From Candidatus Iainarchaeum sp. (GTDB lineage Archaea > Iainarchaeota > Iainarchaeia > Iainarchaeales > JAAZKV01): a DNA stretch of 64,000 bases. Location: NCBI GenBank assembly GCA_026397015.1, contig JAPLVR010000004.1, forward strand, positions 6,126 through 70,125, read 5' to 3'. A program made the translations under genes and the position numbers. Positions within the stretch are counted from its first letter, which is position 1. Each line of letters opens with the position of its first letter. A model generated the notes under the pieces. The model did not search any database. It was not told where the DNA came from and saw nothing but the letters and a program-made list of their open reading frames with translations. Below are positions 18,610 to 41,838 of this stretch, in pieces.

Positions 18610-19695
18610 ATGATTTCAAAAAAAGAGGCGGGAATGCCGATAAGAGAATTTCTTGCGTCGAAAGGAAAAATAATTGACAAAGAAATGGAAAAATATATTC
18701 CGAGAAAAGCGACTAAGAAATGGGTAGAGGGTGCGCTTGGAAAAACTGGGTTTGAGTGGGATTTGGAGGCATACACAAAAGTGGTAAATGAGCCGATTTG
18801 GGATCTGCTTGACCGCGGAGGGAAAAGATGGCGCCCAGTGTTGGCGTGTATTTGTTGTGAGGCTGTTGGGGGAAAATGGGGGGCCGGCTTGAAAGTCGCG
18901 CCAATAGTTGAATTAATACATAACGGCACTTTGATGATTGATGATATAGAAGATGATTCTGTGGCAAGAAGGGGGAAACTATGCACTCACAAACTTTTTG
19001 GTATTGATGTTGCAATTGATGCCGGAAACTTGATGTACTACTGGCCAATGGCCCCAATTTATGCCAATCGGTTTAAGCTTTCTGAAAAGCAACAAAAGCA
19101 GATATACGAACTTTATTTGCAGGAAATGCTTCGGGTTAACTCTGGCCAGGCCCTTGACATAATGTGGCACAGGGGCAATTTTTTGCCTTCAGAAAAGCAA
19201 TATTTGCAAATGTGCCTTGGAAAGACAGGGGTGCTTGCAGGAGTCGCTGCGCAACTGGGTGCGATAATGGGCAATGCGCCAAAAAAACAATCAGATGCGC
19301 TTAGAAAATATGGACAAATAATCGGTGTCGGCTTTCAGATACAGGACGATATTTTGGAATTGATTGGGCAGGAATTCAAGAAAAAGAAAGGTTCAATCGG
19401 CGGCGACATTTACGAGGGAAAAAGAACGTTGATTGTGATAAGGACTCTTGAAAAAGCTTCAAAGGAAGACAGAGAAAGGTTGATAAAAATTCTTGATTCC
19501 CACACAATTCACGAATCCGAAATACAGGAAGCGCTTGACATAATCAATAAATATGATGGAATCCAATATTCAAAGAAGGTGGCTGAAAAATTGGTTCTCG
19601 GCGCATGGAAGGACGCAGACAAGGTGCTGAAAGAAAGCAACGCAAAAACAGTTCTGAAAAAGTTTGCCGAATATTTGATTGAAAGAAAAATTTAA
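18610..19695 (+). CDS. Polyprenyl diphosphate synthase (GGPP synthase family)
   Basis: GGKRWRP, FARM DDIEDDS..RRG, GQALDI, KTG, FQIQDD; alternative start at 18634. Confidence 0.9.
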   Translation: MISKKEAGMPIREFLASKGKIIDKEMEKYIPRKATKKWVEGALGKTGFEWDLEAYTKVVNEPIWDLLDRGGKRWRPVLACICCEAVGGKWGAGLKVAPIVELIHNGTLMIDDIEDDSVARRGKLCTHKLFGIDVAIDAGNLMYYWPMAPIYANRFKLSEKQQKQIYELYLQEMLRVNSGQALDIMWHRGNFLPSEKQYLQMCLGKTGVLAGVAAQLGAIMGNAPKKQSDALRKYGQIIGVGFQIQDDILELIGQEFKKKKGSIGGDIYEGKRTLIVIRTLEKASKEDRERLIKILDSHTIHESEIQEALDIINKYDGIQYSKKVAEKLVLGAWKDADKVLKESNAKTVLKKFAEYLIERKI

Positions 19696-19771
19696 TGGTT
19701 CAATAGCGTAAAGAAAAATTAAAGTGAAATGGTTTGTTTGTTGAAATTTTTGATTTGAAAAGGTGTTTTTG

Positions 19772-20818
19772 ATGGCTTCAGTAACTTCGAAAAGGAAATT
19801 AGATCATTTGAAGATATGCGCTTCAAAGGACGTTTCCTTCAAAGAGAAAACCACTTTGCTCGAATGCGTCGAATTGGGTTACAAAGCGCTGCCGGAAATT
19901 TCTTTGGACAATGTAAATCTTTCAACGCAGTTTTTGGGGAAAAACTTTTCTTTTCCAATAGTGGTTTCAGCCATTACAGGCGGAGCGTCAGCTTCAAAAA
20001 AAATCAACCGAGATATTGCAGTTGCGTGCCAGTCGCTTGGAATCGGAATGGGTTTGGGAAGCATGCGCGCGATGCTTGAGCATCCGAGCGTGGCGGAAAC
20101 TTATTTTGTAAGGGATTGCGCGCCGGACATTTTTTTGGCGGGAAATATCGGCGCGGTTCAATTGAAGGAATTTTCTGTCGAGCAAATCGGAGAAGCTCTT
20201 GATGCAATTGAAGCCGATGCTTTGGCAATTCATGTCAATGCCGCGCAGGAAGCCGTTCAGCCCGAAGGAAATGTGGATTTTTCGGGGCTGGTTTCAAAAA
20301 TTGATGAAATCTCGGCGCGTTTGGGAAAGCCGGTTTATGTTAAGGAAGTCGGGCACGGAATCAGTTTTGAAGTCGCATCAATGCTGAAAGAAACAAAAAT
20401 TTCTGCAATCGATGTGCAGGGCGCGGGCGGCACTTCATGGACAACAGTCGATTCGCTGAGGCACAAGAAAGGCTTCGGCTCGGCGTTTGGCGAATTTGGA
20501 ATTCCAACAGCGGTTTCAATAATCGAAACGCGAAATGCTTTGCAATCTTCGGGCAAAAAAATAATCGGTTCTGGCGGAATTAGAAACGGAATTGATGCAG
20601 CGAAGGCGATTGTTCTCGGCGCCGACATGGCTGGATTGGCGCTTCCCGCTTTGAAAGCGCAGCAGGACGGCGGCGCGAAAGGAGTTGAAGCCTTGCTTTC
20701 AAATTTAATTAATGAACTGGAAATAACTTCATTCCTTTTGGGCGCGAAAAGTATTTCTGAATTAAAAGCGTTGCCGTATGTTGTTACGGGAAAATTGCAC
20801 GATTGGTTGAAGCAATAA
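19772..20818 (+). CDS. fni: Type 2 isopentenyl-diphosphate isomerase (FMN-dependent)
   Basis: RKLDHL, SAITGG, GLGSMR, HVNAAQEAVQPEG, VKEVGHG, GAGGTSW. Confidence 0.95.
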   Translation: MASVTSKRKLDHLKICASKDVSFKEKTTLLECVELGYKALPEISLDNVNLSTQFLGKNFSFPIVVSAITGGASASKKINRDIAVACQSLGIGMGLGSMRAMLEHPSVAETYFVRDCAPDIFLAGNIGAVQLKEFSVEQIGEALDAIEADALAIHVNAAQEAVQPEGNVDFSGLVSKIDEISARLGKPVYVKEVGHGISFEVASMLKETKISAIDVQGAGGTSWTTVDSLRHKKGFGSAFGEFGIPTAVSIIETRNALQSSGKKIIGSGGIRNGIDAAKAIVLGADMAGLALPALKAQQDGGAKGVEALLSNLINELEITSFLLGAKSISELKALPYVVTGKLHDWLKQ

Positions 20819-21093: not shown

Positions 21094-21117
21094 TGCATCT
21101 AATTAAGCCAAATTAAC

Positions 21118-21212: not shown

Positions 21213-22649
21213 GTGGGTTTCATGAAGGTACCGTTGCTTCCGCTTGAGGAAAGAAAAACAACTTTTAATGAAGTTGAAATAGGTTACAATGAAGCGCAGG
21301 CGCTCGAAGAAGCATCAAGATGCTTGCAATGCAAAAAACCTTCCTGCGTTGAAGGGTGCCCGGCAAGAGTGAATATTCCGGGGTTCATAAGAGAATTCAG
21401 GGAAGGAAGAATGGGCGATTCGGCCAAAATAATAAGAGAAAGAAATTTTTTCCCGAGCATTTGCGGGAGGATATGCCAGCACGAAAAGCAGTGCGAGGCA
21501 GCGTGCGTTCTGGCAAAAAAAGATGGCCCCGTTTGCATAGGCGGGATTGAGCGATACATAGGAGACAACGCGCCGAAACCGAAACACAAAAAGGCGAACG
21601 GAAAAAGAGTTGCAATAATAGGTTCCGGGCCGAGCGGTCTTACCGCCGCCGCACATGTAGCGCTCGCAGGATTGAACGCAACTGTTTTCGAAAGCACCCA
21701 CGCGATGGGCGGAATAATAAAATACGGCGTTCCCGAATTCAGGCTGCCGAAAGTGGTTGTTACAAGCGAATTAAAATATTTGCAGGAACTCGGCGTCGAC
21801 TTTGAGCCAAATTCAAAAATCAGCGAAAAATCTTTGGAAGAAATTTCAAAAAAATATGATGCAATATTCATCGGAACGGGGGTAGGAAAATCGAGGGAGT
21901 TAAAAGTTCCGGGTTCGGATTTAAAAGGAATCTTTTCAGCAATGAAATTTTTGGTTAATTTGAACCAGAGCGAAATCGCGCCCGTAAAAAAGGGAGACAA
22001 AATTGTCGTGGTTGGTGCGGGCTATGTTGGAATTGATGCTGCAAGAAGCGCAATCAGAATCGGCGGGGAGGTAACGTGCATCACAAAGGAATCAAAAGAA
22101 GAATCAATTGGAAGGGTTGCGGAAAAAGATTATATTGAAGCTGGGGAAGAAGGGGTAAAATTTATTTTTGGGGCAGGGATATTAAGGTTTGAGGGTGCAA
22201 ATGGAAGTGGCGGCGGAAATGGGGGCGGCAGTGGAAATAGCGGCGGAAACGGAAACACAGAAGGGAGAGCAGTGAAAAAAGTTTGGTATTCGACCGGGCA
22301 GGGGGAATGTGCGCTTGATGCGAATTTAGTTATTGTCGCAGTTGGCCAGGAGCACGATACGGATTCATTTAAGCAATCATTAAGAACGCGCGCCGATGGC
22401 TGCATAAAGGTAAATGAAACTTATCAAACGGCAATCCCGAATGTTTTTGCCGCGGGTGACTGCATTCACGGGCCGAAAACAGTAATAGAAGCCGTTGCAA
22501 CAGGAACGGGCGCGGCGAAAGCGATAATCGAATATTTGGAGAAAAATCCAAAAAATAAAGAAGAGAAGCGGACAGAGGAACAGAAAAAGAAGTTTGATGA
22601 AATAGCGAGAACGATTCAAGAAATAGACCAGTCGAATGCGGACATATGA
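21213..22649 (+). CDS. GltD/SudA/NfnB-like NAD(P)-dependent Fe-S flavoprotein
   Basis: EASRCLQCKKPSCVEGCP, CGRICQHEKQCE, IIGSGPSGL, GAGYVGID, FAAGD. Confidence 0.9.
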   Translation: MGFMKVPLLPLEERKTTFNEVEIGYNEAQALEEASRCLQCKKPSCVEGCPARVNIPGFIREFREGRMGDSAKIIRERNFFPSICGRICQHEKQCEAACVLAKKDGPVCIGGIERYIGDNAPKPKHKKANGKRVAIIGSGPSGLTAAAHVALAGLNATVFESTHAMGGIIKYGVPEFRLPKVVVTSELKYLQELGVDFEPNSKISEKSLEEISKKYDAIFIGTGVGKSRELKVPGSDLKGIFSAMKFLVNLNQSEIAPVKKGDKIVVVGAGYVGIDAARSAIRIGGEVTCITKESKEESIGRVAEKDYIEAGEEGVKFIFGAGILRFEGANGSGGGNGGGSGNSGGNGNTEGRAVKKVWYSTGQGECALDANLVIVAVGQEHDTDSFKQSLRTRADGCIKVNETYQTAIPNVFAAGDCIHGPKTVIEAVATGTGAAKAIIEYLEKNPKNKEEKRTEEQKKKFDEIARTIQEIDQSNADI

Positions 22650-22755
22650 TCTATAAATAAGTTAAGGGTTTTGCATTTTGTAATTTAAAAGTTAAAATTT
22701 TTATAATTTGATTTATAATTTAAAATTTTTGCACGAAAATTTTGAAATGATTTTT

Positions 22756-24042
22756 ATGAACAAGGAAAAGTTCAGGGAATTTTACAAGAAAAGCGTTGCG
22801 GAAAGGCAGCAAATAGTTACGGAAGAATTTTCGCTTTCGCCTGAAGAAAAAGCGCTGCTTCAAAAAGAAGGTTCACTTTCACTTGAAATCGCAAACAGAA
22901 TGATAGAGAATGTTGTCGGAACTTTTCCCTTCCCCTACGGAGTTGCAACCAATTTTGTAATTGACGGAAAAGAAATAATTATTCCTTTTGCGATTGAAGA
23001 GCCGAGCGTTGTCGCCGCGGCAAGCAACGCCGCAAGGCTCTCTTCAGGCTTTGAAACTTCCGCGGACGAGCCGATAATGATCGGGCAGATACAAATAGTG
23101 AAATGCAAAAACCCGAATGCGGCTGTAAAAAAAATACTTGCAAAAAAGAAGGAACTTCTCGAAATCGCACGAGGCGCAGATGTAACGCTCCTCAACTCAG
23201 GCGGCGGACCGAGAAAATTGTTGGGCGTTGTTTTGCCGACCGAAAGGGGAAAAATGGTTGCGCTACAACTGCTCGTTGATGTAAGAGATGCGATGGGGGC
23301 AAATGCGGTTAACACAATGCTTGAAAAGATGGCTCCGCGAATTGAAGAAATTTCCGGCGGACAGGTAAGATTGAGAATAATTTCAAACCTCGCGCTCCAC
23401 AGGAAGGCGAGAGCAAAAGCAGTTTGGGCAAAAAAAATGCTCGAAGAAAGCACGAAAGGGCAGATGAAAGGGGAAGAAGTTGTTGAAGCGATTCTTGACG
23501 CGCATGAGTTCGCGAAGGCGAGCCAGCTGAGGGCAACGACCAGCAACAAGGGAATAATGAATGGCATAGATGCGGTTGTAATTGCGACGGGAAATGATTT
23601 CAGGGCAATTGAATCCGGCGCGCATTCTTTTGCCGCATACAAAAAAGAATACGGTCCGCTCACAAAATTTTATAAAAACAAAAACGGGGACTTGGTCGGC
23701 GAAATAGAATTGCCTATCGCAACAGGATTGATCGGCGGCGCAACAAAAACGCATCCAATGGCTCAGCTTTCGCTCAAAATTTTGGGCGTGAAAACGGCGC
23801 AAGAGCTGGCGCGCATCATTGCGGCAGTTGGATTGGCGCAAAACTTTGCCGCGCTCAGAGCGCTTGCAACGGAAGGAATCCAGCGCGGGCACATGCGATT
23901 GCACTCAAAAAATGTTGCAATAATGGCCGGGGCGAAAGGAAAAGAAATTGAAGTTGTTTCTGAGAAAATGGTTGAAGCAAAGGAAGTTAATTCGGCGAAA
24001 GCAAGTCAAATACTTAAAGAATTGAGGGAAAGAAAAAAGTAG
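22756..24042 (+). CDS. mvaA: Class II HMG-CoA reductase
   Basis: MIENVVG, EEPSVVAAAS, DAMGANAVNTMLE, NKGIMNGIDAV, GIQRGHMRLH. Confidence 0.95.
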   Translation: MNKEKFREFYKKSVAERQQIVTEEFSLSPEEKALLQKEGSLSLEIANRMIENVVGTFPFPYGVATNFVIDGKEIIIPFAIEEPSVVAAASNAARLSSGFETSADEPIMIGQIQIVKCKNPNAAVKKILAKKKELLEIARGADVTLLNSGGGPRKLLGVVLPTERGKMVALQLLVDVRDAMGANAVNTMLEKMAPRIEEISGGQVRLRIISNLALHRKARAKAVWAKKMLEESTKGQMKGEEVVEAILDAHEFAKASQLRATTSNKGIMNGIDAVVIATGNDFRAIESGAHSFAAYKKEYGPLTKFYKNKNGDLVGEIELPIATGLIGGATKTHPMAQLSLKILGVKTAQELARIIAAVGLAQNFAALRALATEGIQRGHMRLHSKNVAIMAGAKGKEIEVVSEKMVEAKEVNSAKASQILKELRERKK

Positions 24043-24155
24043 TTAAAAAATTAAGGAAAGGGAAAAAGTAATTTAATTGTTGAAAATTGAAGAGGAGAAA
24101 ATTAATTGCAAAAGTAATTAAATATTTGCAGATTAAGTTTGTTAAAGGTTTTTTT

Positions 24156-25196
24156 ATGGCGGGAATAGTTGGTTGGGGTTCGTACATTCCGAAGTACAGA
24201 ATAACTGTTGAAGAAATCGCGGCGGTTCAGGGGCAGAACCTGAAAGCGATAATCGACGGCTTGGGGCTTACGGAGAAAAGCGTTCCAGGGAAAGACGAAG
24301 ATGCGGCAACAATTGCCGTTCATGCGTCGCGCGACGCGTTGAAACGCGCAGGAATAAACCCAAAAGAAATAGGGGCGGTTTATGTCGGCTCGGAAAGCCA
24401 CCCTTATGCCGTTAAGCCGACAGCGTCAATTGTGGGCGAAGCACTTGACATTGGAAACGAATACACTGCGCTTGACACAGAATTCGCATGCAAGGCGGGA
24501 AGCGGCACAATACAAATCAACGCCGGAATGGTTGATTCGGGAATGATAAAATACGGATTAGGCGTTGGCGCGGATACTTCACAAGCGGAACCGGGAAATG
24601 CTTTGGAATACTCGGCGGCAGCAGGCGGAGCGGCTTTCATAATCGGGCCGAAAAATGGTTCAGTGGCAACGCTCGATTTTACGGCTTCTTTCACTTCGGA
24701 CACGCCCGATTTTTGGAGAAGGGCATTACAACCCTATCCGGCGCACGCAGGCAGATTTACCGGAGAACCGGCTTACTTCAAACACGTTCTTGGCGCAACA
24801 AATCTTATCCTAAAAAAGAGCGGAGCAAAGATTTCTGATTTTGACCATATAGTTTTGCACATGCCGAACGCAAAATTTCCTGAACGCGCGGCAAAGATTT
24901 TGGGCGCAACGCCAAAGCAGATAGAAGTAGGTCTCGTGGTAAAAAAAATAGGCAACACATATTCTGGAAGCTCGTTGTTGGGATTAGCAGCGGTGCTTGA
25001 TGTTGCAAAACCCGAGCAAAAAATATTGGTGACAAGCTACGGTTCGGGTGCAGGAAGCGACTCATTCATTTTCACAACGACAAACAAGATTTTGCTGGTA
25101 CAGAAAGAAGCGAGAAAAGTGAGCGAATACATTGCGAGAAAAGAATATTTGGGTTACGCACAATATTTGAAGCACATGGAGGAAATCCACAAGTAA
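24156..25196 (+). CDS. mvaS: HMG-CoA synthase, archaeal type
   Basis: GSESHPYAVKP, EFACKAG, SDTPDFWRR, HMPN, IGNTYSG. Confidence 0.95.
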   Translation: MAGIVGWGSYIPKYRITVEEIAAVQGQNLKAIIDGLGLTEKSVPGKDEDAATIAVHASRDALKRAGINPKEIGAVYVGSESHPYAVKPTASIVGEALDIGNEYTALDTEFACKAGSGTIQINAGMVDSGMIKYGLGVGADTSQAEPGNALEYSAAAGGAAFIIGPKNGSVATLDFTASFTSDTPDFWRRALQPYPAHAGRFTGEPAYFKHVLGATNLILKKSGAKISDFDHIVLHMPNAKFPERAAKILGATPKQIEVGLVVKKIGNTYSGSSLLGLAAVLDVAKPEQKILVTSYGSGAGSDSFIFTTTNKILLVQKEARKVSEYIARKEYLGYAQYLKHMEEIHK

Positions 25197-25511
25197 GTGA
25201 TTTTTATGGACTTTAAGAAATTCCTTAGGCCTACAAAGAATAAAATTCTTCTTTCTTTGGCGCTACCAATAATTTTTGCAATTATCGACTTTTTTACAAT
25301 ATGCATGTGTGACAACAGTCTTTTTGGCGTGTGTAATCCAGAAAATAATTATGCCTTTTTATTGCTGAATCCAAGTTGTCATTGTTGGTGTGCCACGTTT
25401 TTCAATGTCATACAGTATTATTCATTTTACATTATTTTGTTCTCAATTGTTTATGCATTAATTTCAGTCGTAAATTTTTCAAAAACTAAAGGCCAAAGTG
25501 ATAAAAAATGA
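25197..25511 (+). CDS. Small Cys-rich membrane protein between HMG-CoA synthase and thiolase
   Basis: Two hydrophobic segments flanking CMC...C...CHCWC; stop overlaps the thiolase ATG; AT-rich. Confidence 0.6.
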   Translation: MIFMDFKKFLRPTKNKILLSLALPIIFAIIDFFTICMCDNSLFGVCNPENNYAFLLLNPSCHCWCATFFNVIQYYSFYIILFSIVYALISVVNFSKTKGQSDKK

Positions 25512-26662: not shown

Positions 26663-26664
26663 AA

Positions 26665-27063
26665 ATGTTCAGAGAAAGCCCAATATTGAGATGGCGCGGA
26701 TACAATGACAGGTACAAGCTGAAGGGATACAAATGCAGGGTGTGCAAAAAAGTTTACTTTGAAAAGAAAGGGTTGTGCCCGTGCGGCAGCATTGAATTTG
26801 ATGAAATTGAACTTTCAGGAAAAGGAAAAATAGCTGCGTTCACGCAAATTCACGGAGCGCCAGAAGCATTCGAATCAAAGGCGCCTTATTGTGTCGCAGT
26901 AATCGATTTGGCGGAGGGGGCGAGGATTGAGGCGCAAGTAGTTGACTGCAAATACTCAGATTTGAAAATCGGAACGGATGTTGAAGCGGTTTTCAGGAAA
27001 TTCTATTCAAGCGGAGAGAAGGGAGCAATACATTACGGAACGAAGTTTGTGCCGAAGTTTTAG
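26665..27063 (+). CDS. DUF35 Zn-ribbon/OB-fold scaffold protein
   Basis: CRVC...CPC zinc ribbon, OB-fold, HYGTKFVP; follows the thiolase. Confidence 0.9.
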   Translation: MFRESPILRWRGYNDRYKLKGYKCRVCKKVYFEKKGLCPCGSIEFDEIELSGKGKIAAFTQIHGAPEAFESKAPYCVAVIDLAEGARIEAQVVDCKYSDLKIGTDVEAVFRKFYSSGEKGAIHYGTKFVPKF

Positions 27064-28952: not shown

Positions 28953-29005
28953 ACATTTTTATTGGTTTAAATTCTTTTCTAAATACAGTTTTTACAGGCG
29001 GTTTG

Positions 29006-32686: not shown

Positions 32687-32696
32687 CCATTTTTAT

Positions 32697-33572: not shown

Positions 33573-33631
33573 ACGAATATTGCCTGCGTTTATTTAAAAT
33601 ACTTATTCGGGGTAATTACATAGGTGATTTT

Positions 33632-34747: not shown

Positions 34748-35690
34748 AATCAAAGCTATTAAGGCAACTAAAAGAAAGGGCGCGCATGGGCAGAGATTTT
34801 CGAGCTGGTCCAAAAGGGCGAGCGTGATGGAAAGATATATGCGCGCCGCCTTCGGGCAGATGGCGAAACGCGGAGAACTTACAAGCGCGCACAACTTGGG
34901 GCATGTGCAAAGGGTTTCTTTATACTCTGCAATTTATGTTAAGGCAATGGGCGGCGGAAAGAAAAAACAGGCTTATGCAAAAATAACAGGCTGGGCGCAC
35001 GATAGGTTAAGGGACCCGCAGGATTCAATGGCGCAGGCAGCTGCCGGAGGAAAAACACACGAAGTTCTTGCAGCGGAACACATGAAACCTTTATTTGAAA
35101 AGAGATACAAAAGAAGCGCTTCAAAGACGATACTTGAAGCGATGGGAACTCACGGCTCCCTTCCAAAACTTAATAGGGTTGGAAAAAATGTTGTGAAAGA
35201 TGCGGTTGTTTTTGCAGACAAATTTTTTGAGGCGAATGGGGCGTACATTGGTTTTAGACGAGCAATGTTCATGGGCGAAAGAGCAGATTTGAGAAAAAAA
35301 ATAATTGAAGAAGGATTGGATATGAAAAATCCGGCTGATTTGAAGAAAACTGCTGTTAGGTTTACTTTGGCGGAATCCGAAAAAAGAATTAAGGCTTTTT
35401 CAGATTTGAGTTCAATACCAAGCCACATGCATGATTTGGTAAAATATCAGGTTCAGTGGCAGGCCAAGCTTGTTGACGGATTGAAGAGAAACGACCCAGG
35501 CACGGTAAATTTGGTTACGCAATTGTTCGCCGAAGGGCTGAAAGAAAGGCCGAGAGATTTGGGCGAAATGATAAGGACTTACAAACCGGTAGCAGAAACG
35601 GATGCAGCTTTCAAAAAAGAGGCAAGCGATTATTTGAGCGGAAAGCTTGCTGAGAAATTTGTTAAACTGATAAAAACTTCAAAAAAATGA
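34740..35690 (+). CDS. HD-domain phosphohydrolase with a basic leader
   Basis: HNLGHVQRV...AHD...THE...H...FADK; start overlaps the PMK stop. Confidence 0.75.
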   Translation: MNKIKAIKATKRKGAHGQRFSSWSKRASVMERYMRAAFGQMAKRGELTSAHNLGHVQRVSLYSAIYVKAMGGGKKKQAYAKITGWAHDRLRDPQDSMAQAAAGGKTHEVLAAEHMKPLFEKRYKRSASKTILEAMGTHGSLPKLNRVGKNVVKDAVVFADKFFEANGAYIGFRRAMFMGERADLRKKIIEEGLDMKNPADLKKTAVRFTLAESEKRIKAFSDLSSIPSHMHDLVKYQVQWQAKLVDGLKRNDPGTVNLVTQLFAEGLKERPRDLGEMIRTYKPVAETDAAFKKEASDYLSGKLAEKFVKLIKTSKK

Positions 35691-35751: not shown

Positions 35752-35793
35752 TTGCCCCCTTATTCTAATTATGAAAAAGGGCGATTGATTCGG

Positions 35794-36330
35794 ATGAAGC
35801 AAATAGTTATTCTCGGCCGCGGAGGGCAGGGCGCTGTTACAAGCTCGCAGGTTCTTGCAGTGGCTGCGTTTGAGAACGGCAAGCACTCACAGGCATTTCC
35901 AAACTTCGGAGTTGAAAGGATGGGCGCGCCGGTAAAAAGCTACTGCAGAATAGATGAGAAACCGATTAATTTGCGCTCGCACGTTTACGAAGCCGATTAC
36001 GCAATAATATTAGACCAGACTCTGGCGGAATGCTTCGACGAAAAAGTAAAAGATGGCGGACTGATTATTGTTAATTCAAATAGGCTTCCGAAGGAAATTC
36101 CGATAAGTTCAAAGGCAAAAATTGTTTGCGTCGACATCACAAAAATAGCGCTTGGAATTATAGGAAAGCCGTTCGTAAACATAATCGCATTGGGCGCGTT
36201 TTCTGCGCTCACAAAAGAAATTTCCCTTCAGGCGCTTGAAAAGGCCGTGCAAAAACAAATAGGAAGCAAAGGAAGCATTGCGGAAAAAAATATTGCCGCA
36301 CTAAAGAAAGTTTACGAGGCGAGCAAATAG
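35794..36330 (+). CDS. porG: Pyruvate/2-oxoacid:ferredoxin oxidoreductase gamma subunit
   Basis: GRGGQGAVT, FGVERMGAPV. Confidence 0.9.
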   Translation: MKQIVILGRGGQGAVTSSQVLAVAAFENGKHSQAFPNFGVERMGAPVKSYCRIDEKPINLRSHVYEADYAIILDQTLAECFDEKVKDGGLIIVNSNRLPKEIPISSKAKIVCVDITKIALGIIGKPFVNIIALGAFSALTKEISLQALEKAVQKQIGSKGSIAEKNIAALKKVYEASK

Positions 36331-36374
36331 AGGGGCAAAGAACAAGAAACAAAATCAAAAAAAGTGAAAATGAA

Positions 36375-36701
36375 ATGAAAAAACAAAAGACAAAAGAGCA
36401 AGCCCAAAGCGGGATTTCAAAAACATGCCCTGGCCCGATGGTTTTTTCAAAGGGTGCAGTGATTTCCGAGCCGGGCTCGACAATGAAATACAAAACCGGA
36501 AACTGGAGAACATACAAGCCGGTTATAGAAAGGGCGAAGTGCATAAAGTGCGGCATCTGCTGGGCGAACTGCCCCGATGCGGCGATAAAAAAAGATTCGG
36601 ACGGAACATTCATAGTGGATTACGATTACTGCAAAGGCTGCCTTATCTGCGACAAGCTCTGCCCAGTGAAAGCGATAAGCCACGGGGTAGAACAAAAGTA
36701 A
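36375..36701 (+). CDS. porD: POR delta subunit (ferredoxin-like)
   Basis: TGNWR..KPVI, CIKCGICWANCP, DYCKGCLICDKLCP. Confidence 0.9.
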   Translation: MKKQKTKEQAQSGISKTCPGPMVFSKGAVISEPGSTMKYKTGNWRTYKPVIERAKCIKCGICWANCPDAAIKKDSDGTFIVDYDYCKGCLICDKLCPVKAISHGVEQK

Positions 36702-36729
36702 AAATTAATTTTTTTTTATGGGTTTTTAA

Positions 36730-37899
36730 GTGATTGTGATGGCTGAAAAGGAAAAAGCAGAAAAGGTCGTGATTTCAGGCGCAGATGCGATTGCATGCGC
36801 GGTAAAATTGTGCAGACCGAAAGTCCTGCCAATGTATCCGATAACTCCGAGCACATTGGTTCCAGAAAGGCTGAGCGAGTTCGTTTTCAACGGGGAAATG
36901 AAGGCTGAAATGATTCATGTGGAAAGCGAGCACAGCGCGGCAAGCGCGCTCTATGGAGCATATGCGACAGGGGTAAGGGGATTTACCGCAACGGCTTCCC
37001 AAGGGTTGGCGTTGATGCACGAAATTTTGCCAATAATTTCCGCAAGCAGGTTTCCAGCAGTTATGGCGGTTGCAAATAGAACCCTTTCGGGTCCGCTGAA
37101 TATTTGGAACGACCACTCGGATGCGGTAAGCGAGAGGGACCAGGGATGGATACAGTTGTATTGCGAAAGCGCGCAGGAAGCATTCGATACCACGATAATG
37201 GCTTACAAAATAGCGGAAACGGAAAGGGTTTCGCTGCCGGTAATGGTTTGCATTGACGGGTTCGCGCTGAGCCATGTTTACGAGCCGGTTCAAATAGAGG
37301 GCCAATCAAAAGTTGACGCTTTTTTGCCGCCTTACAAACCGCACAATTTCCTGGACACTTCCGATCCGAAAACATTTGGCGCAGTTGCTTTTCCCAACAG
37401 TTTTTTCGAGTTTCATGAAGCTGAAGAGATGGCGATGCAAGAAGCGCTGAAAGTTATTCCGAAAGTGAATGAAGAATTTGGAAAAGCGTTCGGCAGGAAA
37501 TATGGAGATGGGCTGGTTGAACTGGTTGAAATGAAAAACGCGGAGTACGCTTTAATCGGAATGGGAACCCTTGTAGGAACCTCACGGGTTGTTGTTGAAG
37601 AAATGAGAAAGCAAGGGGAGAAGGTCGGATTAATAAAATTGAAATGTCTCAGGCCCTTTCCGAAAGACGAAATTTTGCAAGCGTGCAAGAAATTGAAGGG
37701 TTTGGCGGTGATTGACAGGCACGCATCCCTTGGTTACGAGGGAGCACTCACAATTGATTTGAAAGCGGCGCTGAAAGATGAGAAAGTAAAAGTAGAAGGG
37801 TTTGTTGCAGGATTGGGCGGAAGGGACATTGATGTGAAAAGATTAAGAGCAGCGGTTGAAACAATAATGAAAGGAGAGAAAGGTTATTGGTTGAAGTAA
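36730..37899 (+). CDS. porA: POR alpha subunit
   Basis: YPITPS, ESEHSA, TATASQGL, WNDHSD, GLGGRD. Confidence 0.95.
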   Translation: MIVMAEKEKAEKVVISGADAIACAVKLCRPKVLPMYPITPSTLVPERLSEFVFNGEMKAEMIHVESEHSAASALYGAYATGVRGFTATASQGLALMHEILPIISASRFPAVMAVANRTLSGPLNIWNDHSDAVSERDQGWIQLYCESAQEAFDTTIMAYKIAETERVSLPVMVCIDGFALSHVYEPVQIEGQSKVDAFLPPYKPHNFLDTSDPKTFGAVAFPNSFFEFHEAEEMAMQEALKVIPKVNEEFGKAFGRKYGDGLVELVEMKNAEYALIGMGTLVGTSRVVVEEMRKQGEKVGLIKLKCLRPFPKDEILQACKKLKGLAVIDRHASLGYEGALTIDLKAALKDEKVKVEGFVAGLGGRDIDVKRLRAAVETIMKGEKGYWLK

Positions 37900-37959
37900 A
37901 AGTAAAAATAATAGGTAAAAAAGAAAAAATGAAAATTTGAAAATGTTTGAGTTGATTTT

Positions 37960-38868
37960 ATGGCAATAATTGGATTTGAAGAGAAAGAGTTTTTCGCTTC
38001 CGGACACAGGGCGTGCGCTGGCTGTGGGGAAGCGCTTGCATTGAGGCACATAATGAAAGCGGCTGGAGAAAAAACAATTGTGGCGATGGCTACCGGCTGC
38101 ATGGAAGTTGTTTCAACGCCTTATCCAGAAACCGCATGGAAAGTTCCATGGGTGCACTGCGCGTTTGAAAACGCGGCGGCGGTTGCTTCGGGAGTAAGGG
38201 CAGCACTTAATATGAAGGGAGATAAGGAAACAAACGTGATTGCAATAGGCGGGGATGGAGCAAGCTTTGATATTGGATTTGGCGCGCTAAGCGGAGCGAT
38301 AGAAAGGGGAACAAAATTTTTGTACATAGCAACTGACAATGAAGCTTACATGAACACCGGAATTCAAAGGAGCGGAGCAACCTTTCCTTATGCCGCTACA
38401 ACTACCAGCCCTGCGGGGAAAATTATTCCCGGAAAGCAGCAGCCGAAAAAACCGTTGCCTTTTATTGTAGCTTCTCACGGAGTAAAATATGTCGCTTCCG
38501 CTTCGGTTGCGAATCTTCCTGATTTGAAGGCAAAAGTCCAAAAAGCTTTGAAGGTTAATGGTCCGACATTTTTGCATGTCTATGTCCCATGCATTCCGGG
38601 ATGGAAAATTGATTCCTCTACAACGATAGAAATAGCAAGGAAAGCAGTTGAAACAAATGTTTTCCCTTTGTATGAAATCGAAGACGGCGTTTTGAAGTTC
38701 ACCCAAAAGCCTGCGGAGAAAAAACAGGTTGAAAGCTATTTGATAATGCAGGGCCGCTTTAAGCATCTGACTCCTGAATTAGTAAAAAAGATTCAGGGGT
38801 ATGTTGATGCGCGCTTTGCTTTCCTTGAAGGAATTGAAGGCAAGAAATGTTTTGACGTGCTTTACTAA
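37960..38868 (+). CDS. porB: POR beta subunit (TPP-binding)
   Basis: GHRACAGCG, TGCMEV, GGDG, DNEAYMNTGIQRSG, PCIPGW. Confidence 0.95.
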   Translation: MAIIGFEEKEFFASGHRACAGCGEALALRHIMKAAGEKTIVAMATGCMEVVSTPYPETAWKVPWVHCAFENAAAVASGVRAALNMKGDKETNVIAIGGDGASFDIGFGALSGAIERGTKFLYIATDNEAYMNTGIQRSGATFPYAATTTSPAGKIIPGKQQPKKPLPFIVASHGVKYVASASVANLPDLKAKVQKALKVNGPTFLHVYVPCIPGWKIDSSTTIEIARKAVETNVFPLYEIEDGVLKFTQKPAEKKQVESYLIMQGRFKHLTPELVKKIQGYVDARFAFLEGIEGKKCFDVLY

Positions 38869-38871: not shown

Positions 38872-39675
38872 TTATTTTTTAAGCAAATCCTGTACGCGCT
38901 TCACAGGCAGGTCGCTTTTGCTGCAAACTTCAAAAACGCCCTGCTTGTGGCTCTTCAAGCCCCTCCAGTCCAAAACAACTTCTTCCGCACCGCTTTTCTC
39001 AACCATCTGCTTCAGCATCTCCTCATTCAATTCCTGAAGATAATGCGATGGGCAGATGTGGCCGAGGGAATAATTTTTTCTTAATACGAGTTTTGTGAAA
39101 TCGGGCGCGTAATGCGTTCCGCCCAAACCAATTGCAATTTTATCAGAATTTTTGTTTTCGCCCTCTGAAAAAGTCTGTGTTGCAATCGTTTCCGCAACAA
39201 TTTTAACCGCCTTTTCATTCGACCACTCCTTTTCGGTGCTTCCGACTTCGATAAAAACGCTCGGCTTCTCCAAGTAGGGCCCGTGATGGGTAACCTCAAT
39301 TGAAACCTCGAAACCAAGCCCCCTTTCTTCATTCAATCTTTGCATGCCCCGCAAGTAATTGGCCAAAACCCTCGCATTCGTGGGAACAAGCAAACCGCCC
39401 CTGCCGCCATACTCCGCTTTTCCAAAGTTTCCAATCGCGTGGCAGCAGAGCGTCGGCGTTCCGGATTCGGATTTGTGCTTTGAAGCAAAAACAACCAAAT
39501 CGATTCCCCCAAGCTCTTTTTCGCCGAGTTTTGCAAAAATTATTTCATCACTTACTTCTAAAAATTTGAAATTTTTTTCAATTAACTCGCCTCGGAAATT
39601 GTCTTTCATCTTTTTAACGATATTTTTTCCGGCAATGTCAAGCGAAGAATTCACAACCAAACAATTCATGGCCAA
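38872..39675 (-). CDS. dtdA: Archaeal D-aminoacyl-tRNA deacylase
   Basis: FASKHKS, CHAIGN, EVTHHGP, FIEVGS, GGTHY. Confidence 0.9.
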   Translation of the reverse strand: MAMNCLVVNSSLDIAGKNIVKKMKDNFRGELIEKNFKFLEVSDEIIFAKLGEKELGGIDLVVFASKHKSESGTPTLCCHAIGNFGKAEYGGRGGLLVPTNARVLANYLRGMQRLNEERGLGFEVSIEVTHHGPYLEKPSVFIEVGSTEKEWSNEKAVKIVAETIATQTFSEGENKNSDKIAIGLGGTHYAPDFTKLVLRKNYSLGHICPSHYLQELNEEMLKQMVEKSGAEEVVLDWRGLKSHKQGVFEVCSKSDLPVKRVQDLLKK

Positions 39676-39798
39676 ATTAGAAAAAGAACTAATTAAAAAT
39701 TGGACAATAAAAAATTGAAGCGGAAGACAAAATTTCTCTTCACCAAAAATATTTAAACTGAAAAGAGCTTATTGTTGGTTGAAAAAGGCAGTGAAAAA

Positions 39799-41838
39799 AT
39801 GGATTTGAACAAATTATTTTGCCCGAAGAGCGTTGCGATTGTGGGCGCCTCCAATAAGCCTGGAAAGGTCGGTTACGCACTGATAAAGAATCTTTGCGAA
39901 GCGAACTTTAATGGAAAAATTTATCCGATAAATTTGGAAGACAAAAAGGTACAAGGATTGAAATCATATTCATCGGTTTTAAAAGTCAAGGGATCTATTG
40001 ATGCAGCAATAATTTCCATTCCCGCACAGTTCGTTCCAAAGGTGATTGAGGAGTGCGCGAAAAAGGGAACAAAGAACGTTGTGATAATTTCTGCCGGTTT
40101 CAGCGAGGTCGGCGAAGCGGGAAAGAAACTCGAAGATGCGATAAGAAAAACGGCGCAGGAAAACAGGATGTGCATTGTCGGACCGAACACACTAGGGGTA
40201 ATAAACACTGAAAACGGATTTAACGGCTCTTTCTCGGCAAACTTTCCGAAGGAAGGGCCGATTGCGTTGGTTTCACAAAGCGGCGCGCTCTGCACCGCAA
40301 TACTAGACTGGGCAAGGCAGGAAAAAATCGGCTTCTCAAAATTCATTTCAACCGGAAACAAATCGTTCCTTGAAGAATCGCAGTATTTTTCTTACCTTGA
40401 AAAAGACAAAAAAACAAAAGCCGTTTTTGTTTACATGGAGTCTGTTAAAAACCATGAGGCATTCATCCGCGCTGCGGCAAGGCTGGCGAGAAAGAAGCCG
40501 GTCGTTTTGCTGAAAGCGGGAAGGACAAAAGCGGGGCAGGCTGCAGCAAGCTCCCACACCGGCGCAATATCCGGAGACGACGATATTTTTTCGGTGATGT
40601 GCAGAAAAACAAACATGATAAGGATAAATTCAATCGAAGGATTTTTCGACATGGCAAAGCTGCTTTCAAGGCTTACATCAATAAAAAAATTCAGATTAGC
40701 GGTTGTGACGAACGCGGGCGGCCCAGGAGTGATTGTTGCGGATTCAGCGGGCAAGCACAATTTTCCCCTTCCGGAATTTTCGCAGGAAACACTCAAAGTT
40801 GTAAAGCAAATCAATCCAAGCGCGCGCAATCCCCTCGACCTTATAGGGGATGCGAAGCCGATTGACTATGGAACAGCGTTAAGAGTCCTGCAGAAAGACA
40901 GAAACATAGATGTGATTTACGTTTTGCTTACTCCCCAAAGCATGACGAATCCGGAAAGGGTTGCGGACATTGTTGTCGAACTTAATAATCACAAACCGTT
41001 GATTTGTTCTTTCCTCGGCGGGACAGTGGTGAATCATCCGCGGAATTATTTGAAGCAGCACGGCATAGTCGAGTTTGAAACGCCCGAAAGGGGAATAAAG
41101 GCGCTGTCAAGGTTTGAGGATTACACGGAAAACAAAAAAAAGAAAAGAATTTTTTCCCTGAAAGTGAAGGGAAAGGCGGAAATAAGAAAAATGCTTTCGG
41201 GAAAGAAGGAGCTCACGATGCAGGAATCCTACGAGCTGCTTAAAGAATTCGGGATACCTTACCCAAAAAGCGTTTTCTTTTCCGGCAAAAAAGAATTTGA
41301 AAAACAGAAGGCGAAAATTAAGTACCCTGTTGTTCTGAAGAGCGATATCGCAAGCATTTCGCACAGCACTGACCTTGATCTCGTAAAATTAAACATCAAA
41401 AGCAAGGAAGAATTATTCGAAGAAATAACCGCAATGGAAGAAAAAATGCGAAAATTAAAAAAAGCACCGCGCTTCGTTGTACAGGAAATGGTCAAAGACG
41501 GAGAAGAAGTCATAATTTCTTCTATGACAAAGGAATTCGGAAAAGTAATTACATACGGATTAGGCGGGATATTTGTCGAAATAATGAAAGATATCTCCCA
41601 AAAAATAGCGCCGTTGACCGACGATGATGTTGAAGAAATGCTTTCGGAAGTAAAGGGGACGCAAATACTCTGCGGAGCAAGGACGAAAAAGAAATATGAT
41701 GTTGAGGCGTTGAAGAAAACAATTAAGTGTCTGTCACTGCTTGCGCTGGCGCACCCTGAAATAAAAGAAATCGAAATCAATCCATTGATTGTAACCAAAA
41801 GGGGCTGTTATGCGGTAGATGTGATGGTTGCTCTTTGA
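39799..41838 (+). CDS. acdAB: ADP-forming acetate--CoA ligase, fused alpha-beta
   Basis: SVAIVGAS, ISAGFSE, VGPNTLG, SQSGA, ASSHTGA, TNAGGPG, C-terminal ATP-grasp EIEINPL. Confidence 0.9.
   Translation: MDLNKLFCPKSVAIVGASNKPGKVGYALIKNLCEANFNGKIYPINLEDKKVQGLKSYSSVLKVKGSIDAAIISIPAQFVPKVIEECAKKGTKNVVIISAGFSEVGEAGKKLEDAIRKTAQENRMCIVGPNTLGVINTENGFNGSFSANFPKEGPIALVSQSGALCTAILDWARQEKIGFSKFISTGNKSFLEESQYFSYLEKDKKTKAVFVYMESVKNHEAFIRAAARLARKKPVVLLKAGRTKAGQAAASSHTGAISGDDDIFSVMCRKTNMIRINSIEGFFDMAKLLSRLTSIKKFRLAVVTNAGGPGVIVADSAGKHNFPLPEFSQETLKVVKQINPSARNPLDLIGDAKPIDYGTALRVLQKDRNIDVIYVLLTPQSMTNPERVADIVVELNNHKPLICSFLGGTVVNHPRNYLKQHGIVEFETPERGIKALSRFEDYTENKKKKRIFSLKVKGKAEIRKMLSGKKELTMQESYELLKEFGIPYPKSVFFSGKKEFEKQKAKIKYPVVLKSDIASISHSTDLDLVKLNIKSKEELFEEITAMEEKMRKLKKAPRFVVQEMVKDGEEVIISSMTKEFGKVITYGLGGIFVEIMKDISQKIAPLTDDDVEEMLSEVKGTQILCGARTKKKYDVEALKKTIKCLSLLALAHPEIKEIEINPLIVTKRGCYAVDVMVAL

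What the first reader, a model, noticed from the sequence alone, without database searches (positions are those of the whole stretch)
18610..41838. Pyruvate-to-isoprenoid supercluster using the classical mevalonate route in an archaeon
Seen: prenyl synthase, IDI-2, GltD-like, class II HMGR, HMGS, thiolase, DUF35, MVK, MVD, PMK, POR and ACD are almost all co-oriented in ~23 kb. Established: most archaea use modified MVA routes needing isopentenyl phosphate kinase and a class I HMGR; PMK plus MVD is the eukaryote/bacterial route, reported in Sulfolobales and some DPANN. Inference: a chimeric cluster (archaeal upper enzymes, bacterial-type HMGR/PMK/MVD) physically linking acetyl-CoA supply, NADPH supply and lipid precursor synthesis.
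Basis: partly seen in the sequence, partly recalled or inferred. Interest (0 to 1): 0.65.

Follow-up and report, generated by a model that had tools for sequence, protein, structure and literature searches.

The report
Classical mevalonate gene cluster in DPANN archaeon
A tiny DPANN archaeon (Iainarchaeota) keeps nearly all its genes for making lipid building blocks from pyruvate in one 24-kb cluster and uses the "eukaryote-style" last steps, a choice already known in some DPANN; close relatives carry the standard archaeal last steps at exactly the same spot in the cluster.

Summary
Profile searches confirm GGPP synthase, IDI-2, an NfnB/GltD-like flavoprotein, class II HMGR, archaeal HMGS-thiolase-DUF35, MVK, MVD, PMK, porGDAB and ACD at the stated coordinates, with 22 of 24 ORFs co-oriented. 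The genome is an 0.9-Mb Iainarchaeota MAG, 85% complete. It has no IPK, AcnX, UbiD or UbiX, and only one HMGR. The decarboxylase carries the residues typical of the diphosphate-specific enzyme (Lys19, Arg195, Met198). The classical MVK-PMK-MVD route is therefore the best reading.

The "chimeric, bacterial-type" interpretation is only partly right. Class II HMGR is lineage-wide, and the nearest PMK/MVD relatives in the sample I could draw are DPANN and Asgard archaea, not bacteria. Classical MVA in DPANN is already published, so this is a new member of a known kind.

One locus-level result was not found in the papers I could search. In same-family relatives, the slot between MVK and porG holds UbiX-UbiD-AcnX-AcnX-IPK instead of MVD-PMK. 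Across 151 genomes of the phylum, PMK (33 genomes) and IPK (68 genomes) never co-occur. A third type, an MVD homologue paired with IPK, lacks the Arg. The POR/ACD linkage is confined to one family, and the NADPH-supply role is inference.

The parts
18610..19695 (+). Short-chain (GGPP/FPP-type) polyprenyl diphosphate synthase
   Evidence: PF00348, 200 bits. Best NCBIfam matches are IdsA (249 bits) and GGPP synthase (184 bits), both below their equivalog cut-offs.
19763..20818 (+). Type 2 (FMN) isopentenyl-diphosphate isomerase, IDI-2
   Evidence: TIGR02151, 379.8 bits against a cut-off of 281.
21213..22649 (+). Stand-alone NfnB/SudA/GltD-like Fe-S flavoprotein. Inferred role: ferredoxin-to-NAD(P)+ oxidoreductase.
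   Evidence: Fer4_20 plus Pyr_redox_2 domains. Best solved relatives are P. furiosus Nfn large subunits and T. maritima NfnB, 303-312 bits. No NfnA-type small subunit in the genome. It sits between IDI-2 and HMGR in relatives with either cassette type.
22708..24042 (+). Class II HMG-CoA reductase, the only HMGR in the genome
   Evidence: TIGR00532 444 bits against 44 bits for class I TIGR00533. P. mevalonii HMGR scores 434 bits. A single PF00368 hit in the genome.
24087..25196 (+). Archaeal-type HMG-CoA synthase
   Evidence: PRK04262 515 bits and TIGR00748 472 bits.
25197..25511 (+). AT-rich spacer (30% GC) containing a 104-aa ORF that is probably not a gene
   Evidence: No family match. GC is 0.298. 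In L007, HMGS and thiolase are about 34 bp apart.
25508..26662 (+). Archaeal acetoacetyl-CoA thiolase
   Evidence: PRK06064 526 bits; NF053570 477 bits.
26632..27063 (+). DUF35 (OB-fold/zinc-ribbon) scaffold partner of thiolase and HMGS
   Evidence: PF01796 69 bits and PF12172. The gene order HMGS-thiolase-DUF35 is conserved.
27080..27514 (+). orf144, unknown
   Evidence: No family below E 0.01. No match in relatives.
27618..28952 (+). orf444: methyltransferase-like protein with a K/R-rich N-terminal leader, function unknown
   Evidence: Only weak methyltransferase and spermine-synthase hits. The sequence has an ILDIGTFSGG motif. Conserved at 69-74% in L007 and Forterrea, absent from the IPK-type relatives.
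28925..29938 (+). Mevalonate kinase, clade A. The true start is probably the Met at about 29006.
   Evidence: TIGR00549 215 bits against a cut-off of 163. Best solved relative is Leishmania MVK, 251 bits. In the tree it falls in the MVK clade that travels with PMK cassettes. Alignments to relatives begin at residues 23-38.
29970..30968 (+). Diphosphomevalonate decarboxylase (MVD/DMD)
   Evidence: TIGR01240 309 bits against a cut-off of 171; the PMD model NF040704 gives 177 bits against a cut-off of 475. E. faecalis MDD scores 258 bits. Lys19, Ser194-Arg195 and Met198 match the DMD pattern.
31067..31708 (+). HAD-IA phosphatase, accessory, substrate unknown
   Evidence: PF00702 and PF13419. Recurs between MVD and PMK in L008 and L009 at 42-45% identity.
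31709..32686 (+). orf325, unknown. Possible nucleotidyltransferase fold. Found only in this genome among those compared.
   Evidence: Only NTP_transf_2 at E 0.1. GC is 0.361. Absent from relatives.
32697..33572 (-). Orphan MVK-like GHMP paralogue lacking the catalytic Lys and Asp
   Evidence: MVK models below cut-off. Best solved relative is M. mazei MVK, 85 bits. One 49% relative among 5.8 billion clusters. PGK is replaced by CGN, and the Asp of the SGxD motif by Ala, in both proteins.
33632..34747 (+). GHMP-type phosphomevalonate kinase
   Evidence: TIGR01220 233.7 bits against a cut-off of 165.7. GTG start behind GGTGA. Listeria Lin0012 scores 152 bits and S. pneumoniae PMK 59 bits. Always co-occurs with MVD and never with IPK.
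34740..35690 (+). orf316: possible HD-domain protein with a K/R-rich leader, accessory
   Evidence: HD domain at E 0.17 only. Conserved at 57-64% after PMK in L008 and Forterrea.
35752..38868 (+). Four-subunit pyruvate:ferredoxin oxidoreductase, porG-porD-porA-porB
   Evidence: PF01558, the Fer4 families, and POR_N plus PFOR_II. PorB PRK11865 scores 398 bits, just under its 405 cut-off. Conserved downstream of the cassette in L007-L012.
38872..39675 (-). Archaeal D-aminoacyl-tRNA deacylase, unrelated to the pathway. It breaks the co-orientation.
   Evidence: PRK03995 family, 220 bits, below cut-off.
39772..41838 (+). ADP-forming acetyl-CoA synthetase (fused alpha-beta ACD)
   Evidence: TIGR02717 517 bits, below its 567 cut-off; related acyl-CoA ligase models score 460-488 bits.
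41828..42868 (+). tRNA dihydrouridine synthase, overlapping the end of ACD. Not part of the pathway.
   Evidence: TIGR00737 236 bits, below cut-off.

Best explanation
The window is from an Iainarchaeota (DPANN) genome. It encodes a complete, tightly packed isoprenoid-precursor cluster that runs the classical (eukaryote-type) mevalonate pathway.

The proposed sequence of steps:
1. Thiolase, HMGS and DUF35 condense three acetyl-CoA to HMG-CoA.
2. The single class II HMGR reduces it to mevalonate.
3. MVK and then a GHMP-type PMK make mevalonate 5-diphosphate.
4. MVD decarboxylates it to IPP.
5. IDI-2 makes DMAPP.
6. The prenyl synthase makes GGPP or FPP. A GGGP synthase and UbiA prenyltransferases that could use these products are encoded elsewhere in the genome.

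Shown: gene identities, gene order, absence of the alternative enzymes, and the residue signature.

Inferred: enzyme activities, and the following coupling. The adjacent POR would supply acetyl-CoA and reduced ferredoxin. The stand-alone NfnB-like flavoprotein between IDI-2 and HMGR would pass those electrons to NAD(P)+ for HMGR and for IDI-2's flavin. ACD would turn surplus acetyl-CoA into the ATP the three kinase-type steps consume.

Evolution: the MVK-MVD-PMK segment is one of at least three interchangeable lower-pathway cassettes in this phylum. Same-family relatives carry UbiX-UbiD(AMPD)-AcnX-AcnX-IPK in the same slot between DUF35/MVK and porG.
For: - Gene identities come from curated models.
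- PMK and MVD are above their equivalog cut-offs.
- The only two AA-kinase genes are ProB and archaeal PyrH, so there is no IPK.
- tblastn with a same-family relative's UbiX, UbiD, AcnX large, AcnX small and IPK finds nothing in the genome.
- All four GHMP genes of the genome lie in this cluster.
- There is one HMGR, class II.
- The MVD Arg195 position is Arg in 20 of 20 PMK-partnered Iainarchaeota homologues (window included) and in two solved MDDs. It is not Arg in 6 of 6 IPK-partnered homologues or in Anaerolinea PMD. Lys19 and Met198 match the residues introduced in the engineered PMD variant 6n0z relative to 6n0x.
- Of 151 genomes in the phylum, 33 have PMK, all 33 also have MVD, 68 have IPK, and none has both PMK and IPK. 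Hypergeometric P = 7e-11, not corrected for phylogeny.
- L010, L011 and L012 share GGPPS-IDI2-NfnB-HMGR-HMGS-thiolase-DUF35-MVK and porGDAB with the window. Annotation of L010 and L011 shows UbiX-UbiD-AcnX-AcnX-IPK in between; L012 has a slot of similar size and an IPK hit but was not annotated.
- GGGPS and three UbiA-family genes are present.
Against: - The genome is only 85% complete, so absence of IPK/AcnX is not absolute. However, the slot that holds them in relatives is occupied here by MVD-PMK.
- No enzyme has been assayed. HMM scores do not separate MVD from PMD: IPK-partnered homologues score 329-340 bits on the MVD model.
- No G1P dehydrogenase was found, so complete autonomous lipid synthesis is not shown.
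- The NfnB-like protein lacks its usual partner and its substrate is unknown.
- DTD on the opposite strand separates por from ACD, so they are not one operon.
- The one same-genus genome held (G036) lacks the whole cluster. Whether this is binning loss or real absence cannot be told.
Confidence: 0.85

Rival explanations
1. The decarboxylase is really a phosphomevalonate decarboxylase (haloarchaeal-type route), and an IPK sits in the missing 15% of the genome. PMK would then be redundant or act on another substrate.
For: IPK-partnered homologues in the same phylum score as high as true MVDs on TIGR01240. The Anaerolinea PMD scores 222 bits against this protein. The genome is 85% complete.
Against: Arg195 is present, and it is absent from all six IPK-partnered homologues and from Anaerolinea PMD. 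PMK is adjacent, intact and above its cut-off. PMK and IPK never co-occur in 151 genomes. In relatives IPK lies inside this same cluster, not elsewhere.
Confidence: 0.05
2. The cluster is a recent bacterial import: a chimeric operon whose HMGR, PMK and MVD came together from bacteria.
For: The best-scoring curated models and solved structures are bacterial: TIGR01220 'Gram-positive' PMK, E. faecalis MDD and P. mevalonii HMGR. MVK-MVD-PMK order matches, as I recall it, the mvaK1-mvaD-mvaK2 operon of Gram-positive cocci; in the window itself MVD and PMK are separated by HAD, orf325 and the GHMP paralogue, whereas in L007 the three genes are contiguous.
Against: The closest homologues found are Iainarchaeota, other DPANN and Asgard at 36-70% identity. 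Bacterial ones (Uabimicrobium, TM6, an unnamed MAG) are nested among them, and Listeria PMK is on a long outgroup branch. HMGR is shared at 64-70% with relatives that lack PMK/MVD. The bacterial loci carry archaeal-style HMGS-thiolase-DUF35, which suggests transfer from archaea to bacteria. Caveat: the sample of relatives was drawn with query-derived peptide patterns and under-represents Firmicutes.
Confidence: 0.1
3. The adjacency of MVA genes with POR and ACD is only conserved synteny of housekeeping genes in a streamlined genome, with no functional or regulatory coupling.
For: The POR linkage is seen only in the window's family and close relatives, and was not seen in AR10, I. andersonii or other Iainarchaeota PMK loci, as far as their 6-kb flanks reach. 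DTD and Dus, which are unrelated genes, are interspersed. The linkage is independent of which lower cassette is present.
Against: The order is kept across genera at 55-84% identity. The gap from orf316 to porG is 61 bp and on the same strand. The stoichiometric logic fits: acetyl-CoA, reduced ferredoxin, a Fd-NAD(P)+ oxidoreductase-like gene and an NAD(P)H-consuming HMGR.
Confidence: 0.4

Closest known systems
Classical (eukaryote-type) MVA pathway of Sulfolobales and of some DPANN (Micrarchaeota) and Asgard archaea (PMC6107057, PMC11052028, PMC12892359)
   Same: MVK, a GHMP-type PMK and MVD as the sole lower route. No IPK.
   Different: The PMK matches the 'Gram-positive' model (234 bits), not the Sulfolobales-type model NF040957 (94 bits against a cut-off of 500). 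The lineage is Iainarchaeota, which Hoshino & Gaucher 2018 described as mostly MVK plus IPK. Here the genes are part of a 24-kb cluster that also holds POR and ACD.
mvaK1-mvaD-mvaK2 operon of Gram-positive cocci
   Same: Same three enzymes. In L007 they are contiguous in the same order (MVK, MVD, PMK). In the window the order is the same, but HAD, orf325 and the GHMP paralogue lie between MVD and PMK. Class II HMGR. E. faecalis MDD is the best solved match.
   Different: The upper enzymes are the archaeal HMGS-thiolase-DUF35 trio rather than MvaS/MvaE. IDI-2, a prenyl synthase and accessory HAD, HD-like and methyltransferase-like genes are embedded. Sequence identity to bacterial PMK is low (Listeria 152 bits).
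Archaeal-type MVA pathway (phosphomevalonate dehydratase AcnX, UbiD-type anhydromevalonate-phosphate decarboxylase with UbiX, IPK)
   Same: Same upper pathway, same MVK step and, in same-family relatives, the same chromosomal slot and flanking genes.
   Different: None of AcnX, UbiD, UbiX or IPK is present in this genome. From established knowledge of the pathways, the classical route costs one more ATP per IPP but needs no Fe-S dehydratase or prenylated flavin.
Archaeal thiolase/HMGS/DUF35 channelling complex
   Same: Three adjacent genes of the right families in the usual order.
   Different: Complex formation has not been tested. A 311-bp AT-rich spacer separates HMGS from thiolase here.
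NfnAB / SudAB ferredoxin:NADP+ oxidoreductases
   Same: The 478-aa protein matches the large (NfnB/SudA) subunit over its full length, 303-312 bits.
   Different: No small subunit (NfnA/SudB) anywhere in the genome, so electron bifurcation of the Nfn type is unlikely.

Membership tests
Classical (eukaryote-type) mevalonate pathway | Mevalonate kinase present | tested here: met
   TIGR00549, 215 bits against a cut-off of 163.
Classical (eukaryote-type) mevalonate pathway | Phosphomevalonate kinase present | tested here: met
   TIGR01220 equivalog, 233.7 bits against a cut-off of 165.7. Motif Lys8, the GFGSSAA loop and GAGGGDCG are intact.
Classical (eukaryote-type) mevalonate pathway | Decarboxylase specific for mevalonate 5-diphosphate | tested here: inconclusive
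   The sequence signature (Lys19, Arg195, Met198) and the partner gene point to DMD. Substrate preference cannot be measured with these tools.
Classical (eukaryote-type) mevalonate pathway | No isopentenyl phosphate kinase | tested here: met
   The only AA-kinase genes are ProB and PyrH. tblastn with a same-family relative's IPK is negative. The genome is 85% complete.
Archaeal-type mevalonate pathway | AcnX-type phosphomevalonate dehydratase, UbiD-type decarboxylase with UbiX, and IPK | tested here: not met
   No tblastn hit at E <= 1e-3 with the same-family proteins from L010.
Haloarchaeal-type mevalonate pathway | PMD (decarboxylase without the beta-phosphate Arg) plus IPK | tested here: not met
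   Arg195 is present. No IPK.
Class II HMG-CoA reductase | Matches the class II rather than the class I model over its full length | tested here: met
   TIGR00532 444 bits against 44 bits for TIGR00533. P. mevalonii enzyme scores 434 bits.
Class II HMG-CoA reductase | Cofactor preference (NADH or NADPH) | not testable with these tools
   Needs an assay. It bears on the NADPH-supply idea.
NfnAB-type ferredoxin:NADP+ oxidoreductase | Large subunit with FAD and two [4Fe-4S] clusters | tested here: met
   Fer4_20 plus Pyr_redox_2 domains. Nfn large subunits score 303-312 bits.
NfnAB-type ferredoxin:NADP+ oxidoreductase | Small subunit (NfnA/SudB, DHODB_Fe-S_bind) | tested here: not met
   No PF10418 match in the genome.
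Archaeal thiolase/HMGS/DUF35 complex | Three adjacent genes of these families | tested here: met
   The order is conserved in relatives.

The most novel reading that the evidence does not exclude
The slot between DUF35/MVK and porG in Iainarchaeota may be an exchange point. Three alternative lower-mevalonate cassettes would be swapped there between close relatives by recombination on the conserved flanks: the archaeal UbiX-UbiD-AcnX-IPK cassette, PMD-like plus IPK, and MVK-MVD-PMK. Each cassette would bring its own MVK clade, and hybrids such as G031 and G100 would be left behind. Within one family of the phylum, a diphosphate-specific MVD would have reverted to an IPK-partnered, Arg-less enzyme. 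If so, the phylum is a living record of the transitions between mevalonate-pathway variants, transitions that so far have been inferred only from deep phylogenies.
Probability: 0.4. Interest if true: 0.65.

Novelty: new member of a known kind. Interest (0 to 1): 0.45.

Why it matters
How the mevalonate pathway variants (archaeal, haloarchaeal, Thermoplasma-type and eukaryote-type) arose from one another is an open question tied to the origin of archaeal and eukaryotic membranes.

This window on its own adds another DPANN lineage with the eukaryote-type route, which is ordinary. Its comparative context is more useful:
- Closely related genomes share the same flanks but carry different lower cassettes.
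- PMK and IPK are strictly mutually exclusive.
- A single Arg tracks the partner enzyme.

Together these give a concrete, testable system for what determines MVD versus PMD specificity, and for why a cell would trade a cheaper, Fe-S- and prFMN-dependent route for a costlier, cofactor-free one.

The conserved NfnB-like gene between IDI-2 and HMGR is a candidate missing link between ferredoxin-based fermentation and the NAD(P)H demand of lipid synthesis in these small-genome archaea.

Tried and rejected
- Rfam scan of the whole window: no RNA family.
- Pfam at E up to 0.5 for orf144, orf444, orf325, orf316, orf104 and the 96-aa ORF in the IDI-2/NfnB gap: only weak, sub-threshold hits. These stay unknown.
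- I considered that orf325 plus the GHMP paralogue are a recent insertion, because they are absent from relatives and lower in GC. A repeat search of 30900-33750 found no convincing flanking direct or inverted repeats, so no mechanism can be named.
- I considered that the GHMP paralogue is the leftover native archaeal MVK. It is only 24-27% identical to either MVK clade of the family and sits on a very long branch, so this is not supported. Loss of the catalytic Lys and Asp is shared with its one 49% relative, which argues for a diverged non-catalytic function rather than fresh decay.
- I checked the same-genus genome G036 for the cluster. It has no GHMP, IPK, MVD or thiolase match. This cannot be interpreted, because it could be a missing contig or a real loss.
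- I searched for a G1P dehydrogenase (PF13685) and an NfnA partner (PF10418). Both are absent.
- I did not use structure prediction, the large representative-protein search or read mapping. Sequence evidence was sufficient for the identities, and no RNA data are expected for this MAG.

Full report
**What is there**

| Coordinates | Strand | Gene | Key evidence |
|---|---|---|---|
| 18610-19695 | + | Short-chain prenyl diphosphate synthase | |
| 19763-20818 | + | IDI-2 | TIGR02151, 380 bits |
| 21213-22649 | + | NfnB/GltD-like Fe-S flavoprotein | |
| 22708-24042 | + | Class II HMGR | TIGR00532 444 bits; class I TIGR00533 44 bits |
| 24087-25196 | + | Archaeal HMGS | |
| 25508-26662 | + | Thiolase | |
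| 26632-27063 | + | DUF35 | |
| 28925-29938 | + | MVK | |
| 29970-30968 | + | MVD | TIGR01240, 309 bits (cut-off 171) |
| 33632-34747 | + | GHMP-type PMK | TIGR01220, 234 bits (cut-off 166); GTG start behind GGTGA |
| 35752-38868 | + | porGDAB | |
| 39772-41838 | + | Fused ADP-forming acetyl-CoA synthetase | |

- orf144.
- orf444, a methyltransferase-like protein with a K/R-rich leader.
- A HAD phosphatase.
- orf325.
- A minus-strand GHMP paralogue.
- orf316, a possible HD-domain protein.
- An archaeal D-aminoacyl-tRNA deacylase on the minus strand.
- A dihydrouridine synthase.

22 of 24 ORFs are co-oriented, and most gaps are under 100 bp.

**Whose genome it is**

The window is C4:6126-70125 of an 898,628-bp, six-contig genome that is 85% complete. 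The closest loci are titled Candidatus Iainarchaeum or unnamed archaeal MAGs. It is therefore an Iainarchaeota (formerly Diapherotrites) DPANN genome.

**Is the route classical?**

- The genome has only two amino-acid-kinase-fold genes, and they are glutamate 5-kinase and archaeal UMP kinase, not IPK.
- tblastn with UbiX, UbiD, both AcnX subunits and IPK taken from a same-family relative finds nothing.
- All four GHMP genes of the genome lie in this cluster.
- There is a single HMGR.

HMM scores alone cannot separate MVD from phosphomevalonate decarboxylase. In the same phylum, homologues that sit next to IPK and lack PMK score 329-340 bits on the MVD model. I therefore compared residues.

The two Anaerolinea PMD entries 6n0x and 6n0z differ at an Asn/Lys in the KYWG(N/K) motif and at a His/Met in the G(H/M) motif. 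A 2024 survey cites the Lys as DMD-typical and the His as PMD-typical (PMC11052028). The window's enzyme has Lys19 and Met198.

The residue after the conserved Ser (window Arg195) separates the two groups more cleanly:
- It is Arg in all 20 PMK-partnered Iainarchaeota homologues examined (window included) and in the E. faecalis and S. aureus MDDs.
- It is Thr, Asn, Ser, Glu, Thr or Trp in the six IPK-partnered homologues, and Thr in Anaerolinea PMD.

From my recollection of the S. epidermidis MDD structures, this Arg contacts the distal phosphate of the substrate. Together with the adjacent PMK, this makes the classical route the best reading (confidence 0.85). Activity remains untested.

**Synteny and the cassette swap**

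Three relatives (L007, L008, L009) keep the order HMGS-thiolase-DUF35-(orf444)-MVK-MVD-(HAD)-PMK-(orf316)-porGDAB-DTD-ACD-Dus at 55-84% identity.

I searched 151 genomes of the phylum.

| Feature | Genomes |
|---|---|
| PMK above cut-off | 33 |
| PMK genomes that also have MVD | 33 of 33 |
| IPK | 68 |
| Both PMK and IPK | 0 |

The hypergeometric P for zero overlap is 7e-11, not corrected for phylogeny. The split runs through single genera.

I fetched the locus from three IPK-type genomes of the window's own family (L010, L011, L012). They share GGPPS-IDI2-NfnB-like-HMGR-HMGS-thiolase-DUF35-MVK upstream and porGDAB downstream with the window. In L010 and L011, whose slots I annotated, the genes between MVK and porG are UbiX, a UbiD-family decarboxylase, the AcnX large and small subunits, and IPK. 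That is the archaeal-type lower pathway. L012 has a slot of similar size and an IPK hit inside it, but I did not annotate it. The lower pathway is thus a replaceable cassette in a conserved frame.

An MVK tree shows two clades.
- Clade A contains the window's MVK. It travels with PMK cassettes, including those of Heimdall/Hodarchaeota and of a TM6 bacterium.
- Clade B travels with the archaeal cassette.
- Some genomes carry both. G031 has B, A and then the archaeal cassette. G100 has A, a long-branch B, and then MVD and PMK. These look like recombination intermediates.

A decarboxylase tree places the four IPK-partnered, Arg-less enzymes of family f5 inside a clade of PMK-partnered MVDs (quick search, SH-aLRT support 88-95). 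This suggests a derived MVD-to-PMD-like switch.

**Origin of the "bacterial-type" parts**

Class II HMGR is present at 64-70% identity in relatives with either cassette. It is reported as common in DPANN, Asgard and TACK archaea (PMC6107057). It therefore did not arrive together with PMK and MVD.

The nearest PMK relatives found are Iainarchaeota (including AR10 and I. andersonii), other DPANN, Hod/Heimdallarchaeota, two Uabimicrobium planctomycetes, a TM6 bacterium and an unnamed bacterium.
- In a tree, the bacterial and Asgard sequences are nested within the DPANN diversity, and Listeria PMK is a distant outgroup.
- The TM6 locus and the unnamed bacterial locus carry archaeal-style HMGS-thiolase-DUF35 next to MVK/MVD/PMK. 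This hints at transfer from archaea to bacteria.
- The sample was drawn with query-derived peptide patterns, so Firmicutes are under-represented and the direction of transfer is not settled.

**The link to POR, ACD and NADPH**

porGDAB follows the cassette in every relative of the window's own family that was examined, plus two unclassified MAG loci (L016, L028), whichever cassette they carry. It was not found beside PMK in the other Iainarchaeota loci examined, as far as their 6-kb flanks reach. The supercluster is thus a family trait. It is not specific to the classical route.

DTD on the opposite strand separates por from ACD.

The GltD-like protein is most similar to Nfn large subunits, but no NfnA/SudB small subunit exists in the genome. 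Its conserved place between IDI-2 and HMGR fits a role passing POR-derived ferredoxin electrons to NAD(P)+. That role is inference.

ACD typically conserves energy from acetyl-CoA rather than supplying acetyl-CoA.

Downstream, a GGGP synthase and three UbiA-family prenyltransferases are present, but no G1P dehydrogenase. This matches the published loss of G1PDH in this lineage (PMC12892359).

**Novelty**

Classical MVA in DPANN is published:
- A few Micrarchaeota (PMC6107057).
- "Several DPANN MAGs" and Asgard (PMC11052028).
- Several Micrarchaeota orders (PMC12892359).

PMC6107057 described Diapherotrites as mostly MVK plus IPK. Here 33 of 151 genomes have PMK plus MVD, and the PMK loci include I. 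andersonii (the named reference species) and AR10.

The finding as stated is a new member of a known kind. The same-slot cassette polymorphism, the strict PMK/IPK exclusivity, the IPK-partnered MVD homologues in DPANN and the Arg signature did not turn up in the literature I could search. They are worth a targeted study.

**Limits**

- No biochemistry was done.
- The MAG is 85% complete.
- The trees were made with a quick search on modest, biased samples.
- Co-occurrence statistics ignore shared ancestry.
- The same-genus genome G036 lacks the whole cluster for unknown reasons.

Noticed in passing
window 32697-33572 (-): An MVK-like GHMP protein whose catalytic Lys (PGK replaced by CGN) and catalytic Asp (SGxD replaced by SAGA) are both substituted. 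It has a single 49%-identical relative among 5.8 billion protein clusters, and that relative shares the substitutions. It may be a non-catalytic mevalonate- or ATP-binding paralogue.
   Followed up: partly
G005:C1:134369-137416; also G034, G089, G142 (family f5), G143, G017: Iainarchaeota genomes with MVK, an MVD homologue and IPK contiguous, and no PMK. This is a haloarchaeal-like lower pathway, which I did not find reported for DPANN. Their decarboxylases lack the Arg at window position 195, and four of them nest inside a clade of PMK-partnered MVDs.
   Followed up: partly
L011 (G031:C1:420000-439900) and L009 (G100): Hybrid loci. G031 has two MVKs of different clades followed by the archaeal cassette. 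G100 has a clade-A MVK, a long-branch clade-B MVK, then MVD and PMK. They are possible recombination intermediates.
   Followed up: partly
L039 (bacterium MEGAHIT-group-1.1042) and L047 (TM6/Dependentiae): Bacterial MAG contigs carry archaeal-style HMGS-thiolase-DUF35 plus class II HMGR, MVK, MVD and PMK in one block. This suggests transfer of the whole cluster between DPANN-like archaea and bacteria.
   Followed up: no
window 27618-28952 and 34740-35690: Two accessory proteins inside the cluster begin with lysine/arginine-rich N-terminal leaders: a methyltransferase-like protein and a possible HD-domain protein. Another first-stage note reported such leaders across the window.
   Followed up: no
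window 25197-25511: A 311-bp spacer of 30% GC lies between HMGS and thiolase. In a relative the two genes are about 34 bp apart. It may be an inserted element or a regulatory region.
   Followed up: no
window 28925-29938: The window's MVK matches Leishmania major MVK (251 bits) far better than archaeal MVKs (116 bits) or Gram-positive MVKs (76-96 bits).
   Followed up: no
G036 (same genus as the window's genome): There is no match for any GHMP kinase, IPK, MVD or thiolase. The whole cluster is missing from this 88%-complete MAG. About 50 of the 151 genomes in the phylum have neither PMK nor IPK.
   Followed up: partly
window 16783-17910 (-) and 44077-45435 (+): A radical-SAM/SPASM protein lies just upstream of the cluster, and a DUF711 protein (569 bits) lies downstream. 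Neither was examined further.
   Followed up: no
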